Positions 23,781 through 30,322 of a stretch of 40,923 nucleotides of DNA are shown here, piece by piece. The notes under the pieces were generated by a model that was given only the letters and a program-made list of their open reading frames with translations, made no database searches and had not been told where the DNA came from. Source of the stretch: Candidatus Eiseniibacteriota bacterium (GTDB lineage Bacteria; Eisenbacteria; RBG-16-71-46; CAIMUX01; VGJL01); the NCBI GenBank assembly GCA_041946735.1, contig JBHGAY010000036.1, positions 1 to 40,923 of the forward strand, in the 5' to 3' direction. Position numbers and translations under genes: made by a program. How positions within the stretch are numbered: the first letter of the stretch is position 1; each line of letters opens with the position of its first letter.

Positions 23781-24698
23781 ATGAGACGGACGCGCCTTTC
23801 GAGGCGGAGGGTGGTGAGGCTGTCCCGCGCGGGAGCTTGGGGTGCGGTCGGGTCAGCGCTCGCGGCAGGAGGACCCCTCGTGGCCGCCGCCACCCTGGTC
23901 GCGGCATTTGCTAGCTGCGATCCGGCCTCAGCCCAAGACAGTGGATCGTCCACGGCGGCCGAGCAGCAGAAGGTGGCCAAGGATCTGAGCAATCCCGTGG
24001 CCGACATGGCGAGCATCCCGCTTCAGTTCAACTGGGAGAGCGGCGTCGGCGACCCGCAGGATCTCCGGTTGATCCTGAACATCCAGCCCGTGGTTCCGTT
24101 CTCTCTCAACTCCAATTGGGTCCTGGTCGGGCGGTTCATCATGCCGTACATGAACCAGCCGGCCGGGCTGATGGGAGAAACGGCCTCGGGCACCGGGGAC
24201 ATCATCGCCTCTGCGTTCTTCACACCAAAGAGGTCGCCGGTCGTCTGTGGTTTCGGGCCCGTGTTCGGCCTCCCCACCACCACAAATCCCCTTCTCGGTT
24301 CGGGCAAGTGGATGATGGGGCCGACTGCCGTCGTCTTGAAGCAAAAAGGTCCATTGTCGATCGGGTTCCTTGGGAACCATCTCTGGTCGATCTCCGACAC
24401 GGGCGATATCGAGCGGAAGGACGTGAGCCAGACATTCCTGCAGCCGTTCCTGACCTTCACGACAAGGACGGCGTGGACCTTCGGAATCAACACCGAGAGC
24501 ACCTATGACTGGAAGGCCCCGGACGGAGAAGAGTGGACGGTCCCGATTCACGCGTGGGTGAGCAAGGTCACACGGATGGGGCCGTTCCCGTTCTCGGTCG
24601 CTCTCGGCGGGGGCTACTTCGTCGAGTCCCCGGATATGGGAGCGGACTGGAAGCTCCGAACGGCGTTCACGCTCATTCTCCCGAAGGGCAAGAGCTAG
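23781..24698 (+). CDS. Putative outer-membrane barrel/transporter (family often mislabelled 'neuromedin U') found in sulfatase clusters
   Basis: AAGGAGG SD; long leader; AKDLSNPVADMASIPLQFN, LNIQPVVPFSLN, GSGKW..GPTAVVL, QPFL, YDW..WTVP. Confidence 0.85.
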   Translation: MRRTRLSRRRVVRLSRAGAWGAVGSALAAGGPLVAAATLVAAFASCDPASAQDSGSSTAAEQQKVAKDLSNPVADMASIPLQFNWESGVGDPQDLRLILNIQPVVPFSLNSNWVLVGRFIMPYMNQPAGLMGETASGTGDIIASAFFTPKRSPVVCGFGPVFGLPTTTNPLLGSGKWMMGPTAVVLKQKGPLSIGFLGNHLWSISDTGDIERKDVSQTFLQPFLTFTTRTAWTFGINTESTYDWKAPDGEEWTVPIHAWVSKVTRMGPFPFSVALGGGYFVESPDMGADWKLRTAFTLILPKGKS

Positions 24699-24737
24699 GC
24701 GAATCGAGACGCGCTCGATTGGGATCGGAGGCGGATT

Positions 24738-26015
24738 GTGGCACCTCAGAGGATGTATCGGGGAAGGCCGGTCGTGCGAATCCACGCCATGGTCAAGCCT
24801 ATCGGCGCGACGTGCAACCTCGACTGCAAGTACTGCTATTACCTGAGCAAGCAGAATCTCCTCGGTCCCCAGGCCGGCGCCCACATCTCCGACGAGATGC
24901 TCGAGACGTTCATTCGCCAGTACATCGAGGGCCAGAACTACAAGGAGATCATCTTCTCTTGGCAGGGGGGCGAGCCGACCCTGCTTGGCCTGGACTTCTT
25001 CCGCAAGGTCGTCGCGCTGGAGAAGAAGTACTGCCCCCCGCACGTGCGTTGCGAGAACGACCTGCAGACCAACGGCACGCTGCTCGACGAGCAGTGGTGC
25101 GAGTTCCTGCGCGACAACGGCTTCCTCGTCGGCCTGAGCATGGACGGGCCGCGCGCGCTCCACGATGCCAATCGCAAGGACAAGGCCGGCGGCGGGTCGT
25201 TCGACCGGGTGTTCCGCGCGTCGTCGCTCCTCCGTCGGTTCGGAGTGCGGTTCGCCACCCTCTCTTGCATCAACAGGCTGACCGCGAAGTATCCCGCCGA
25301 GGTGTATCGCTTCCTCCGCGACGAGGTCGGATCGAAGCGGATGCAGTTCATCCCGGTCGTGGAGCCGAAGGGGTTCGAGCGGACGGCGCCGCAATACTGG
25401 CCTCCGGAGCGGGTGCCGGTCGTAGGCAGCGCGGCGGCGCGGCCCGGCACGGCGGACTCGGTCGTCGAGGAGTGGTCTGTGGACCCCGACGATTGGGGCG
25501 ACTTCCTCTGCGAGGTGTTCGACATCTGGCACGCGAACGATCTCGGCAAGGTCTACGTCCACTACTTCGACGCCGCCGTCGAGGCGTGGATGGGGCGAGT
25601 CAATCCGCTATGCAGCCTGGGGCCGATGTGCGGCAAGGGCCTGGCTCTCGAGCGAGACGGAAGCGTCTATGCGTGCGACCACTATGTCTATCCGGAGTAC
25701 CGGCTCGGGAACATCGGCGTCACCCCGCTCGCCGACCTGGCCTTTACCCCGCAACAGGAGGCCTTCGGGAAGAACAAGGAAGCCTCGCTGCCGTGGGCGT
25801 GTCGAGAATGCTCCTATGAGTTCGCGTGCTTCGGGGAATGCCCGAAGAACCGCTTCGTCATGACGGCGAGCGGCGAGCGGGGCCTGAACTATCTCTGCCC
25901 AGGCTGGAAGCGATTCTGGGCCCACATCGACGAACCGATCCAGAAGATCGTCCGCAGTCTCGGCCACACGCCGGTAAAGCAGCTCCTCTACTCCACGGAA
26001 TCGGAGACGGAATGA
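24738..26015 (+). CDS. Anaerobic sulfatase-maturating enzyme (anSME; radical SAM/SPASM, AtsB/AslB/ChuR family)
   Basis: KPIGATCNLDCKYCYY, WQGGEP, LQTNGTLL and GLSMDG; SPASM cysteines C..C..DGSVYACDHYV..CREC...CFGECPK..YLC. Confidence 0.95.
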   Translation: MAPQRMYRGRPVVRIHAMVKPIGATCNLDCKYCYYLSKQNLLGPQAGAHISDEMLETFIRQYIEGQNYKEIIFSWQGGEPTLLGLDFFRKVVALEKKYCPPHVRCENDLQTNGTLLDEQWCEFLRDNGFLVGLSMDGPRALHDANRKDKAGGGSFDRVFRASSLLRRFGVRFATLSCINRLTAKYPAEVYRFLRDEVGSKRMQFIPVVEPKGFERTAPQYWPPERVPVVGSAAARPGTADSVVEEWSVDPDDWGDFLCEVFDIWHANDLGKVYVHYFDAAVEAWMGRVNPLCSLGPMCGKGLALERDGSVYACDHYVYPEYRLGNIGVTPLADLAFTPQQEAFGKNKEASLPWACRECSYEFACFGECPKNRFVMTASGERGLNYLCPGWKRFWAHIDEPIQKIVRSLGHTPVKQLLYSTESETE

Positions 26016-28542: not shown

Positions 28543-28657
28543 CCTGGGGCCGAGCCGGGTAGAGGAAATCCATGGATCCGCGGCCCCGCCCGATCCTCTT
28601 CCGGGAAGAGGCGGGGGCCGCGGAGATGGAAACGCGACATGGAAGGAGGGGCCGCGC

Positions 28658-30322
28658 ATGAAACGAAGAGGAGCTGCGATTCGGAGCATGGGCAGGATGC
28701 GTCACGCCGGCGCCTGGGCGGCCGTCGGCTCGGTGCTCGCGGTCGGCAGCCTGCTCGCGACGCAGCCGGCACAGGCTCAGTCGACCCGCTCGGGCGAACG
28801 CCAGCCCAACATCCTGGTGATCTTCGGGGACGACATCGGGCAGTCCAACATCAGTGTCTTCACGAAAGGGATGATGGGTTACCGGACTCCGAACATTGAT
28901 CGCATCGCCAACGAGGGAATGCTCTTCACCGACTACTACGCGGAACAGAGCTGCACGGCAGGACGGTCCTCGTTCATCACGGGCCAGTGTGTCTTCCGGA
29001 CCGGCTTGAGCAAGGTCGGTCTGCCCGCCGCCCCCGTGGGATTGCACAAGGAGGACCCGACCATAGCGGAGCTGCTCAAGCCGCTCGGCTATGCGACCGG
29101 TCAGTTCGGCAAGAACCATCTTGGCGACCGCAACGAGTACCTGCCGACCGTCCACGGCTTCGACGAATTCTTTGGCAACCTGTACCATTTGAACGCCGAG
29201 GAAGAGCCGGAGCTGTACGGCTATCCACAGGATCCGCAGTTCCGGCAGAGGTTCGGGCCGCGCGGGGTGCTCCGGTGCAAGGCCAGCGACAAGGACGACC
29301 CTACCGTCGACCCGCGCTTCGGCAGGATCGGCAAGCAGACGGTCGAGGACACCGGCCCGCTGACCCGCAAGCGAATGGAGACGATCGACGACGAGACGTC
29401 GGCGGCCGCGATCGACTTCATGCGACGTCAGGCGAAGGCGGGCAAGCCGTTCTTCTGCTGGTACAACTCGACCCGGATGCACGCCCGCACCCACGTACGA
29501 CCCGAGCATCGGAGTTCCCGAGGGCCGCAGGCGTTGACCGAGTACGCGGATGGCATGGTCGAGCACGACGGCACGGTCGGCTCGTTGCTCAAGGCTCTCG
29601 ATGACCTCGGGATCGCGGACAACACGATCCTGGTCTACACGACGGACAACGGACCACACGCGAACACATGGCCGGACGCAGCCACGACGCCGTTCCGCAG
29701 TGAGAAGAACTCGAACTGGGAGGGAGCCTTCCGCGTCCCCTGCTTCATTCGCTGGCCGGGTCACATCCAGGCGAACACGATCTCGAACGAGGTCGCCAGC
29801 GGTCTGGACTGGATGCCGACCCTCCTTGCGGCGGCGGGGAATCCCGATGCGAAGGAGAAGCTGCTCGATGGCTACACCATCGGTGACATGACCTACAAGG
29901 TTCACCTCGATGGCTACAACCTTCTTCCCTATCTGATCGGCAAGGAGCCGCGGAGCCCTCGGAAAGCGTTCTTCTACTTCAGCGACGACTGTGACCTGCT
30001 GTGCCTGCGCTACGAGAACTGGAAGTTCGTCTTCATGGAGCAGCGCTCCCCCGGCACCTTGGCCCTCTGGGCGGAGCCTTTCACGAAGCTGCGGAGCGGC
30101 AAGATGTTCGACCTTCGCTCGGACCCGTACGAGCGCGCCGACATCACGTCCAACACGTACTTCGACTGGGCGTTCGACCACCTCTTCCTCATCGTTCCCT
30201 CCCAGGCCTACGTGGTCGAGTTCATCAAGACGTTCCAGGAGTATCCGCCCCGGCAGAAGCCTGCTTCCTTCGGGATCGACGAGTCGCTGGAGATCCTGCA
30301 GAGGATGGCTGCAGGGCAATGA
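28658..30322 (+). CDS. Exported Cys-type arylsulfatase, paralogue 2
   Basis: AAGGAGG SD before ATG 28658; PNILVIFGDDIG, SCTAGRSSFITG, FGKNHLG, TTDNG, SEKNSNWEG. Confidence 0.95.
   Translation: MKRRGAAIRSMGRMRHAGAWAAVGSVLAVGSLLATQPAQAQSTRSGERQPNILVIFGDDIGQSNISVFTKGMMGYRTPNIDRIANEGMLFTDYYAEQSCTAGRSSFITGQCVFRTGLSKVGLPAAPVGLHKEDPTIAELLKPLGYATGQFGKNHLGDRNEYLPTVHGFDEFFGNLYHLNAEEEPELYGYPQDPQFRQRFGPRGVLRCKASDKDDPTVDPRFGRIGKQTVEDTGPLTRKRMETIDDETSAAAIDFMRRQAKAGKPFFCWYNSTRMHARTHVRPEHRSSRGPQALTEYADGMVEHDGTVGSLLKALDDLGIADNTILVYTTDNGPHANTWPDAATTPFRSEKNSNWEGAFRVPCFIRWPGHIQANTISNEVASGLDWMPTLLAAAGNPDAKEKLLDGYTIGDMTYKVHLDGYNLLPYLIGKEPRSPRKAFFYFSDDCDLLCLRYENWKFVFMEQRSPGTLALWAEPFTKLRSGKMFDLRSDPYERADITSNTYFDWAFDHLFLIVPSQAYVVEFIKTFQEYPPRQKPASFGIDESLEILQRMAAGQ

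What the first reader, a model, noticed from the sequence alone, without database searches (positions are those of the whole stretch)
23781..28780. One conserved leader peptide on three proteins of the sulfatase operon, including a non-homologous barrel protein: a candidate leader-directed maturation/export system
Seen in sequence: the barrel-type protein (RLSRAGAWGAVGSALAAG..PASA-Q, motif 23829-23870), sulfatase 1 (RISRAGAWAAVGSVLAVG..PARA-Q, 26932-26973) and sulfatase 2 (RMRHAGAWAAVGSVLAVG..PAQA-Q, 28706-28747) share a long Arg-rich n-region, Trp at residue 19-20, the same 14-residue core and a PAxA-Q cleavage site. Many third codon positions differ between copies (GCGGGAGCTTGG, GCCGGAGCCTGG, GCCGGCGCCTGG), which suggests selection on the peptide. 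Other exported proteins of the locus (HAD, SphA, Omp85) lack the motif. Established: signal peptides normally diverge quickly; anSME modifies the sulfatase in the cytoplasm before export; signal-peptide dependence was reported for Klebsiella AtsA/AtsB. Inference: the leader is a recognition tag, read by the co-encoded trigger-factor paralogue and/or anSME, that delays Sec export until formylglycine is installed.
Basis: partly seen in the sequence, partly recalled or inferred. Interest (0 to 1): 0.82.

Follow-up and report, generated by a model that had tools for sequence, protein, structure and literature searches.

The report
Sulfatase-specific conserved export leader
Three genes of one operon begin with the same export signal, and that signal belongs to an undescribed, unusually conserved family found almost only on sulfatases, which suggests that something in the cell reads it as a tag.

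Summary
The 14-residue core (A-G-A-W-x-A-V-G-S-x-L-A-x-G) occurs exactly three times in the 4.9-Mb genome, at the stated coordinates.

It is not a local oddity. The same core heads sulfatases of two subfamilies in 10 other distinct loci, with GC 0.49-0.66 and MAGs labelled as four phyla. No Pfam or NCBIfam model covers it, Tat models included.

Syntenic loci of the organism's own order lack it. Their sulfatase orthologues have no signal peptide at all.

In this genome the + strand genes look horizontally acquired. The anSME is 74% identical to that of a distant MAG and 43-46% identical to own-order relatives.

The trigger-factor paralogue is a real mini-TF family that keeps the ribosome-docking motif and lacks the PPIase domain. 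In both contexts I could read, it overlaps the anSME stop by four bases (ATGA) and precedes a leader-bearing sulfatase. Most leader loci lack it.

The barrel protein has a COG4313-like outer-membrane channel fold and is the only non-sulfatase carrier.

The recognition-tag reading is plausible. The reader of the tag is unproven.

The parts
23781..24698 (+). Outer-membrane channel ('barrel') gene with a 12-stranded-barrel-like fold. It is the only non-sulfatase found carrying the leader.
   Evidence: ORF. No Pfam or NCBIfam hit. AF2 model has pLDDT 74.9 and is all-beta from residue 76. Best Foldseek match is 4RL8, the COG4313 OM channel, E 2.9e-8, TM 0.59/0.67, followed by FapF. Homologues lie next to anSME in G005, G010 and G022. 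A 41-42% identical homologue lies in G206 on the contig of a leader sulfatase.
23781..23933 (+). Barrel leader. It has an Arg-rich n-region and the 14-residue core (23829-23870), followed by a second hydrophobic stretch and A-S-A before Q. The cleavage site is inferred by eye.
   Evidence: The second hydrophobic stretch, read with the short ordinary signal peptides of barrel orthologues, suggests the core was added in front of an existing signal peptide. That step is inference.
24738..26015 (+). Anaerobic sulfatase-maturating enzyme (anSME).
   Evidence: TIGR03942 at 454.9 bits against a cut-off of 349.45. Radical_SAM plus SPASM domains. It is 74% identical to the anSME of G206/L047 and 43-46% identical to own-order relatives.
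26012..26809 (+). Mini trigger factor: TF N-domain plus part of the C-domain, no PPIase domain. Its start overlaps the anSME stop (ATGA).
   Evidence: Trigger_N 3.2e-18 and Trigger_C 6.1e-8, no FKBP_C. TIGR00115 at 95.7 bits, below the 180.2 cut-off. Family of about 17 proteins of 250-286 aa at about 50% identity. G-F-R-x-G-x-A-P is invariant. The N-domain matches solved TF ribosome-binding domains at E about 1e-10. The ATGA overlap is seen here and in L047.
26887..28542 (+). Sulfatase 1 (Cys-type, about 550-aa subfamily). Leader 26887-27003, core 26932-26973.
   Evidence: PF00884 7e-50. 77% identical to the leader-bearing orthologue in L041 and 54-57% to the signal-less orthologues of the same order.
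28658..30322 (+). Sulfatase 2 (58% identical to sulfatase 1). Leader 28658-28777, core 28706-28747.
   Evidence: PF00884 1.7e-50. 58% identity to sulfatase 1. 80% identical to the leader-bearing orthologue in L046.
30409..31404 (+). Exported HAD-type hydrolase, last gene of the + strand block. It has an ordinary signal peptide.
   Evidence: PF12710 3.9e-14. 78% identical to the HAD downstream of the sulfatase 2 orthologue in L046. Not matched by the leader HMM.
22248..23699 (-). MetA/COG4313-type outer-membrane channel, divergent neighbour of the operon. The true start is probably near 23267. It has an ordinary signal peptide.
   Evidence: PF13557 1e-32. 57-60% identical to the syntenic genes of G005, G010 and G022.

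Best explanation
The three leaders are copies of a conserved, so far uncurated family of signal peptides that is essentially specific to sulfatases.

Anatomy: a basic n-region, an almost fixed 14-residue core rich in small residues with one Trp, a short variable hydrophobic tail, and an A-x-A site.

Origin in this genome: it came with a horizontally acquired + strand block of (barrel)-anSME-mini-TF-sulfatase-sulfatase-HAD. This block replaced the signal-less sulfatases and the anSME type seen in the syntenic loci of the same order. The barrel gene most likely got its copy secondarily from a sulfatase gene. Its n-region is most like that of sulfatase 1, and the core sits in front of what looks like the barrel's own signal peptide.

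Mechanism (inferred): the core is kept by selection on the peptide, so it is read in trans as a tag and does not serve only as a generic hydrophobic export signal. The most likely job of the tag is to route these precursors through a slow, post-translational Sec path that leaves time for cytoplasmic FGly formation. In this cassette type, the ribosome-docking mini-TF that is translationally coupled to anSME is the best candidate reader. It is an accessory and not the universal reader.

Shown: the family, its sulfatase specificity, its absence from own-order loci, the horizontal origin of the block, and the mini-TF anatomy and coupling.

Inferred: that the core is read, by whom, and the effect on export timing.
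For: Uniqueness: the three copies are unique in the genome.

Same core elsewhere:
- It heads 8 metagenome loci and 4 MAG loci, which make 10 distinct loci because L044, L049 and L050 are one locus.
- Every carrier is a sulfatase. Six were confirmed by Pfam and four by BLAST. L049 is sequence-identical to L050. L047 was judged only from its 74 visible residues.
- Further copies: a diverged copy (W to R) on a second sulfatase of L048 and a copy at G206:C515.

Wider searches:
- A profile of 14 leaders against 1.84 billion representatives gave 18 hits at E<=1e-3. I fetched 16 of them. The 7 with enough sequence past the cleavage site to judge begin like sulfatases. The rest are too short or garbled to classify. 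None resembles the barrel.
- G000 has only two sulfatases and both carry the leader. G207 has 26 sulfatase matches and only two carry it.

Selection signature:
- Across 13 leaders (78 pairs), per-site differences in the core are 0.0, 0.068 and 0.458 at codon positions 1, 2 and 3. In the 10 codons on either side they are 0.42-0.66 at all positions.
- The carrying loci range from 0.49 to 0.66 GC.

Signal-peptide turnover in the family: of the 119 closest sulfatase 1 homologues (65-82% identical), 46 have no N-extension, 28 have a twin-Arg type signal, 36 have other signals, 4 have the leader and 5 are weakly leader-like.

Own-order loci: the syntenic loci in G005, G010 and G022 have signal-less sulfatases and short ordinary barrel signals.

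Horizontal origin: anSME is 74% identical to G206 against 43-46% to own-order relatives, which are 79-83% identical among themselves. The mini-TF was found in 1 of 206 genomes of G000's phylum and in 1 of 33 genomes of G206's order.

Mini-TF: the order anSME, mini-TF, leader sulfatase and the ATGA overlap are the same in G000 and G206. The docking motif is invariant in 17 of 17 sequences.

Precedent: PceT is a TF-like chaperone that binds a signal peptide (PMC10624902, introduction passage read).
Against: - Ascertainment: 10 of the 13 leaders in the codon count were found with a pattern that fixes codon positions 1 and 2. Their near-zero values are therefore partly built in. The unbiased profile search shows that more diverged variants exist.
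- Some codons are also rather uniform (TCG in 10 of 13, GTG in 11 of 13, GCG in 11 of 13). This fits fairly recent spread as well as selection.
- No mini-TF lies within the DNA held for 9 of the 10 other distinct loci. None was found in G207, G208 or G209, whose completeness is unknown.
- Only two mini-TF contexts could be read.
- G206's contigs are short, so binning is uncertain.
- L044, L049 and L050 are one locus filed under two phylum labels.
- No signal-peptide predictor could be run, and nothing was tested at the bench.
- The barrel copy has 3 non-synonymous changes in the core and may be a passenger of a 5' recombination event.
Confidence: 0.55

Rival explanations
1. Passenger module. 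The leader is an ordinary Sec signal peptide that travels as a 5' gene-end module by recombination between sulfatase genes and between genomes. Its sameness would reflect recent copying, not a dedicated reader. The barrel copy would be one more such graft.
For: Signal peptides are swapped freely in this sulfatase family. Several core codons are nearly uniform even in low-GC loci. The whole block is horizontally mobile. The barrel n-region is closest to that of sulfatase 1 of the same genome. An earlier scan note on other DNA read a similar case as a 5' swap (e1-2884099, lead only).
Against: Third codon positions differ at 0.458 per site while the flanking leader codons are fully randomised. 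A module copied recently would keep its n- and c-regions and its untranslated leader, yet upstream DNA of the three G000 genes is not alike. The carriers span 0.49-0.66 GC and two sulfatase subfamilies that are 22-25% identical.
Confidence: 0.25
2. The leader is read by anSME itself, as RiPP maturases read leader peptides. The mini-TF would be irrelevant to recognition.
For: anSME lies within the DNA held in 3 of the 10 other distinct loci (L042, L044 group, L047) and in G000. From recall, not from any call: signal-peptide dependence of FGly formation was reported for Klebsiella AtsA/AtsB. The open library searched did not hold that paper.
Against: anSMEs beside leader sulfatases are no closer to each other (43-49% identical across the two groups) than to anSMEs beside signal-less sulfatases. 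G207 carries two leader sulfatases and no TIGR03942 match at E<=1e-30, but it has 9 FGE-domain matches. No extra peptide-binding domain is visible beyond Radical_SAM and SPASM.
Confidence: 0.1
3. The leader is a variant twin-arginine (Tat) signal that exports already folded, matured sulfatase.
For: The h-region is rich in Ala, Gly and Ser and only weakly hydrophobic. 28 of the 119 closest homologues carry twin-Arg signals followed by two hydrophobic residues. The barrel copy has S-R-R-R-V-V-R.
Against: Only 1 of 14 leaders passes the crude twin-Arg test, and 8 of 14 have no Arg-Arg at all. No Tat model of NCBIfam or Pfam matches at E<=10. From established knowledge, an outer-membrane barrel protein is expected to cross unfolded via Sec.
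Confidence: 0.05
4. The segment is not cleaved. It would be a membrane anchor whose small-xxx-small pattern packs against another membrane helix, tethering or oligomerising the enzymes at the inner membrane.
For: Small residues recur at spacings typical of helix packing (G2-A6, G8-A12, S9-A13 in the core).
Against: An A-x-A-type site follows the hydrophobic stretch in nearly all copies. The barrel protein must reach the outer membrane.
Confidence: 0.05

Closest known systems
PceT/RdhT of Desulfitobacterium and Dehalobacter (TF-like chaperone that binds the Tat signal peptide of the reductive dehalogenase PceA), and more widely the REMP chaperones such as TorD and DmsD
   Same: A chaperone gene in the operon of an exported enzyme that must be matured in the cytoplasm, with the signal peptide as the handle (PMC10624902, introduction passage). 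TorD and DmsD are cited from recall.
   Different: The signal here is not of the Tat type. From recall, PceT keeps the PPIase and C domains and lacks the ribosome-binding N domain. The mini-TF does the reverse: it keeps the N domain with the docking motif and lacks the PPIase. Binding is not shown here. The leader also occurs without the mini-TF.
Class-specific signal-peptide motifs (YSIRK-G/S, KxYKxGKxW, ESPR of autotransporters; names recalled, not from a call)
   Same: A conserved motif inside an N-terminal signal peptide, restricted to one class of cargo and thought to route it to a particular export mode.
   Different: Here the conserved part is the hydrophobic core itself, the cargo class is sulfatases, and the hosts are diderm-type uncultured bacteria. 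No curated model matches it.
Partial (5'-restricted) gene conversion or mosaic paralogues
   Same: One short 5' segment is shared by genes that are otherwise diverged or unrelated (sulfatase 1 and 2 are 58% identical; the barrel is unrelated).
   Different: Only the 14-codon core is shared. The codons before and after it, and the upstream DNA, are not. Synonymous differences are many.
Klebsiella AtsA/AtsB and the clostridial and Bacteroides anSME systems
   Same: A cytoplasmic radical-SAM maturase acts on a sulfatase that is then exported. The anSME here is a full TIGR03942 member.
   Different: Those systems have no TF-like gene and no conserved leader that I know of. The searches found none in print.

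Membership tests
Twin-arginine (Tat) signal peptide | Nearly invariant Arg-Arg followed by x and two hydrophobic residues at the n/h border | tested here: not met
   1 of 14 leaders passes and 8 of 14 have no Arg-Arg.
Twin-arginine (Tat) signal peptide | Match to curated Tat signal models | tested here: not met
   No Tat signal model among the hits at E<=10 for four leaders in NCBIfam and Pfam. The only Tat-related hit was TIGR02811 at E 0.19, far below its cut-off.
Sec-type, signal peptidase I signal peptide | Basic n-region, hydrophobic h-region, small-x-small site | tested here: met
   Read directly from the 14 aligned leaders. No predictor such as SignalP was available, so the pathway call is inference.
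Sec-type, signal peptidase I signal peptide | Actual cleavage and Sec dependence | not testable with these tools
   Needs N-terminal sequencing and export assays.
Trigger factor (tig, TIGR00115) for the gene at 26012-26809 | N-terminal ribosome-binding domain with the G-F-R-x-G-x-x-P motif | tested here: met
   Trigger_N 3.2e-18. Motif invariant in 17 of 17. Matches solved TF N-domains.
Trigger factor (tig, TIGR00115) for the gene at 26012-26809 | Central FKBP-type PPIase domain and full length of about 430-480 aa | tested here: not met
   No FKBP_C hit and 265 aa. 95.7 bits against a 180.2 cut-off. The housekeeping tig is elsewhere, at C4:59034.
Anaerobic sulfatase-maturating enzyme (TIGR03942) | Score above the equivalog cut-off, with radical SAM plus SPASM domains | tested here: met
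   454.9 against 349.45 bits. Radical_SAM and SPASM.
COG4313 / Phenol_MetA_deg outer-membrane channel, for the barrel protein | Sequence match to PF13557 | tested here: not met
   No Pfam family at E<=0.01.
COG4313 / Phenol_MetA_deg outer-membrane channel, for the barrel protein | Barrel fold with an N-terminal helix, like 4RL8 | tested here: met
   Foldseek E 2.9e-8, TM 0.59/0.67, on a model of pLDDT 74.9 built from 6 sequences.
Signal-peptide-binding dedicated chaperone systems (PceT/REMP-like) | Chaperone gene kept in the operon of its cargo | tested here: inconclusive
   Met in G000 and G206, which are 2 of 2 readable mini-TF contexts. However, 9 of the 10 other distinct leader loci show no mini-TF.
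Signal-peptide-binding dedicated chaperone systems (PceT/REMP-like) | Physical binding of the chaperone to the signal peptide | not testable with these tools
   Needs pull-down, crosslinking or NMR.

The most novel reading that the evidence does not exclude
A ribosome-coupled sulfatase maturation line. The mini-TF docks at the ribosomal exit through its retained TF motif and catches the conserved leader as it emerges, out-competing SRP and the housekeeping TF. It then hands the still unfolded chain to the anSME made from the overlapping reading frame, so FGly is installed co-translationally before Sec export. The leader would be the address tag of this line. Where the mini-TF is missing, the same tag would be read by another, still unknown, factor. 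The outer-membrane channel would carry the tag so that channel and enzymes are made and exported together.
Probability: 0.22. Interest if true: 0.85.

Novelty: new variant of a known kind. Interest (0 to 1): 0.68.

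Why it matters
How a cytoplasmic, oxygen-sensitive maturase gets to act on a sulfatase that carries an export signal is an old loose end. 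A signal peptide whose hydrophobic core is nearly fixed across unrelated sulfatases and hosts, sometimes with a PPIase-less trigger factor fused in translation to the maturase, gives a concrete and testable handle: leader swaps, core mutants, and presence or absence of the mini-TF.

It would also add a cargo-class-specific signal to the short list of such signals. It could help heterologous production of active sulfatases. Finally, it gives annotators a marker for one mobile sulfatase cassette.

Tried and rejected
- Complex prediction of mini-TF (alignment A3) with the leader (A2): no verdict. Scores were 0.43, 0.29 and 0.44 against one control at 0.34. I do not use it either way.
- Leader region of sulfatase 1 alone against 5.8 billion proteins: only the query came back. 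The search is too insensitive for 45 residues.
- Context of other mini-TF genes:
  - NCBI accessions were too sparse to test adjacency.
  - Searches of G000's phylum (206 genomes) and G206's order (33 genomes) found no further mini-TF.
- Metagenome loci could not be extended because the records are not held.
- Sequencing runs: no RNA holder was listed. The laid contigs showed no informative polymorphism inside the leaders.
- Earlier-findings look-ups by place and by sequence gave nothing.
- Literature searches for a sulfatase-specific signal peptide or a trigger factor linked to sulfatase maturation found nothing relevant. The library lacks most subscription papers.
- A DNA-level repeat or hairpin as the cause of the sameness: rejected because differences pile up at third codon positions.
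- The G206 barrel homologue has only a faint leader-like N-terminus (6 bits). I treat it as not significant.

Full report
**Observation**

The + strand block of the window reads as follows:
- barrel protein, 23781-24698
- anSME, 24738-26015 (TIGR03942, 454.9 bits against a cut-off of 349.45)
- a 265-residue trigger-factor paralogue, 26012-26809 (Trigger_N and Trigger_C, no PPIase)
- sulfatase 1, 26887-28542
- sulfatase 2, 28658-30322 (58% identical to sulfatase 1)
- an exported HAD hydrolase, 30409-31404

The barrel protein and both sulfatases start with an Arg-rich stretch, then the core A-G-A-W-(G/A)-A-V-G-S-(A/V)-L-A-(A/V)-G, then a short hydrophobic tail and A-x-A followed by Q.

The core is found nowhere else in the 4.89-Mb assembly:
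- by regular expression over six frames
- by degenerate DNA pattern (3 hits, 0 with the reversed control)
- by a leader HMM over 39,964 ORFs (three hits at 60-70 bits, next best 12 bits)

The codons differ mostly at synonymous positions. Counted as identical / synonymous / non-synonymous codons: sulfatase 1 vs 2 is 9/5/0, barrel vs sulfatase 1 is 5/6/3, and barrel vs sulfatase 2 is 4/7/3. DNA upstream of the three starts is not alike beyond a ribosome-binding site.

Contigs from other public samples cover the barrel-leader-to-anSME junction and the mini-TF-to-sulfatase-1-leader junction with 1-2 differences, so the arrangement is not an assembly artefact.

**Own relatives lack it**

The window is a whole 40.9-kb contig of a 94.8%-complete genome. 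Three genomes of the same order (G005, G010, G022) have a syntenic locus with anSME, a barrel homologue, a MetA-type channel, Omp85 and several sulfatases.
- The orthologue of sulfatases 1 and 2 there (54-61% identical) starts a few residues before the mature domain. It has no signal peptide at all.
- The large sulfatases there are also signal-less.
- The barrel homologues have short ordinary signal peptides.
- The motif pattern is absent from the other 34 genomes of the order.
- The TF paralogue is absent from 40 relatives and from all 205 other genomes of the phylum held. Only the housekeeping tig answers.

Identities split the locus in two:
- The − strand neighbours (MetA-type channel, Omp85, OMP barrel) are 57-69% identical to those relatives.
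- anSME is 43-46% identical, the barrel 30-37% and the sulfatases 54-61%.
- The relatives' anSMEs are 79-83% identical to each other.

So the + strand block looks like an incoming replacement, not an heirloom.

**The leader is a family, and it is sulfatase-specific**

Scans with the back-translated core gave 8 metagenome loci and 4 MAG loci. The MAGs are labelled Lentisphaerae, Verrucomicrobiia, Nitrospirota and Thermodesulfobacteriota. L044, L049 and L050 are one nearly identical locus, so there are 10 distinct loci.
- In every one the match is the N-terminus of a sulfatase.
- The carrier is either the ~550-residue type of this window (L040, L041, L043, L046, L047, L048) or an ~820-residue type (L039, L042, L044 group, L045).
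- The ~820-residue type is only 22-25% identical to sulfatase 1.
- L047 is cut after 74 residues and was judged only by its first mature residues.
- The loci range from 0.49 to 0.66 GC.
- Further copies: a diverged one (Trp replaced by Arg) on the second sulfatase of L048, and one on an ~820-type sulfatase of G206.

A profile of 14 leaders against 1.84 billion cluster representatives returned 18 hits at E<=1e-3, mostly gene fragments. Of the 16 I fetched, the 7 with enough sequence to judge begin like sulfatases. They show mild variation of the core. None resembles the barrel.

No Pfam or NCBIfam model, Tat models included, matches the leader.

Per genome, only a few sulfatases carry it: 2 of 2 in G000, 2 of 5 matches in G206, 2 of 26 in G207, 1 of 3 in G208 and 1 of 2 in G209.

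**Is it selection or copying?**

Across 13 leaders (78 pairs), the core differs at 0.0, 0.068 and 0.458 per site at codon positions 1, 2 and 3. The ten codons before and after it differ at 0.42-0.66 at all positions, and amino-acid identity there is 0.24-0.29.

This picture has two limits:
- Ten of the 13 leaders were collected with a pattern that fixes positions 1 and 2.
- Some codons are rather uniform.

Two observations are independent of that bias:
- The hits exist at all, and always at sulfatase N-termini, where chance expects none.
- The neighbouring leader residues are scrambled.

The 119 closest homologues of sulfatase 1 (65-82% identical) show how freely N-termini turn over in this family: 46 with none, 28 with twin-Arg signals, 36 with other signals, 4 with the leader and 5 faintly like it. 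Against that background, a core shared with a 22%-identical sulfatase subfamily is exceptional.

It is not a Tat signal. Only 1 of 14 leaders has Arg-Arg-x followed by two hydrophobic residues, and 8 have no Arg-Arg.

**The mini trigger factor**

The paralogue belongs to a family of about 17 proteins of 250-286 residues at about 50% identity. Two of them are named from Thermoanaerobaculia and Acidobacteria MAGs.
- All 17 aligned sequences keep the TF ribosome-docking motif G-F-R-x-G-x-A-P.
- The N-domain matches solved TF ribosome-binding domains.
- There is no PPIase domain.

Only one other context could be read, on the 2,555-base G206 contig. The order there is anSME, mini-TF, leader-bearing sulfatase, as in the window. 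The mini-TF start overlaps the anSME stop by the same four bases, within nearly identical surrounding DNA. That anSME is 74% identical to the window's. The mini-TF is found in no other genome of G206's order (0 of 32).

The other 9 distinct leader loci show no mini-TF in the DNA held. G207, G208 and G209 have only tig. anSME is present in 3 of the 10 other loci. A MetA-type channel is also present in 3 of them.

So the mini-TF is tied to anSME and to one cassette type. It is not tied to the leader in general.

**The barrel protein**

The AF2 model (pLDDT 74.9, six sequences) is a beta-barrel after an N-terminal helix. It is most like the COG4313 outer-membrane channel 4RL8, then FapF. It shares that fold class with the MetA-type neighbour while having no Pfam match.

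It is the only non-sulfatase carrier found:
- Its leader has the core followed by a second hydrophobic stretch and its own A-x-A site. This reads as if the core had been placed in front of an existing signal peptide.
- Its n-region resembles that of sulfatase 1 more than any other leader.
- Its closest relative found (41-42% identical) lies in G206, about 1.6 kb from a leader-bearing sulfatase. That relative has at most a faint likeness to the core, 6 bits, which I do not count.

I read the barrel copy as a secondary graft from a sulfatase gene. Whether it is used as a tag is open.

**How it most likely works**

Shown:
- a conserved, cargo-specific leader family
- its arrival here with a mobile block
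- a PPIase-less, ribosome-docking TF translationally coupled to anSME in this cassette type

Inferred:
- The core is read in trans.
- The tag keeps the precursor on a slow, post-translational Sec route, so that anSME can act on the unfolded chain.

The known parallel is PceT, a TF-like chaperone that binds the signal peptide of a cofactor-bearing exported enzyme (PMC10624902, introduction passage). PceT acts on a Tat signal and, from recall, has the opposite domain loss.

The reported signal-peptide dependence of FGly formation in Klebsiella is recalled. I could not find it in the open library.

**Known or new**

Searches of the paper library for a conserved sulfatase signal peptide, or for a trigger factor linked to sulfatase maturation, found nothing relevant. 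Curated family libraries have no model for the leader.

I used it as a lead. The association is borne out here in two loci only.

**Verdict**

- The tag idea is plausible and now rests on cross-genome evidence.
- The TF paralogue as general reader is weakened.
- The mechanism is untested.

Noticed in passing
L031 (G005), L032 (G010), L033/L034 (G022): In the syntenic loci of the same order, all sulfatases (the ~550-aa type and two or three ~800-aa types) lack any signal peptide. Yet they sit among outer-membrane channel genes and an anSME. This looks like a cytoplasmic desulfation locus with dedicated uptake channels.
   Followed up: partly
L044, L049, L050: One nearly identical locus (SfLAP-like membrane protein, leader sulfatase, anSME) occurs in a metagenome contig and in two MAGs labelled as different phyla from one study. 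An IS110-family transposase lies about 1 kb beyond the anSME (L050:2029-3093). This points to either a mobile element or a binning error.
   Followed up: no
window 26012-26015 and L047 1220-1223: The anSME stop and the mini-TF start overlap as ATGA. About 25 bases of nearly identical DNA surround the junction in two genomes whose proteins are 74% (anSME) and 50% (mini-TF) identical.
   Followed up: yes
L062 1492-2433 (-), G206:C515: The closest barrel homologue found (41-42% identical) lies about 1.6 kb from a leader-bearing ~820-aa sulfatase. Its probable GTG start gives a signal peptide containing a five-residue stretch of the core. This is too weak to call.
   Followed up: partly
window 21674-22153 (-): A 159-residue exported protein without any Pfam family lies between Omp85 and the MetA-type channel. 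It was not found in the relatives' loci with the queries used.
   Followed up: no
window 13238-15748 (-) and 11344-13461 (-): A large radical SAM protein with DUF4070 sits next to a 705-residue protein without any Pfam match, just upstream of a Ser/Thr kinase-TPR protein (15792-18188).
   Followed up: no
window 3917-4642 (-), 5644-5985 (+), 10871-11293 (+): Small accessory genes typical of mobile or defence islands: a RAMA-domain protein, DUF4160, and a BrnA-type antitoxin. No integrase or tRNA gene is present in the window.
   Followed up: no
L041 1134-3449 (+): A patatin-like phospholipase fused to an Omp85-type barrel lies next to the leader-bearing orthologue of sulfatase 1.
   Followed up: no
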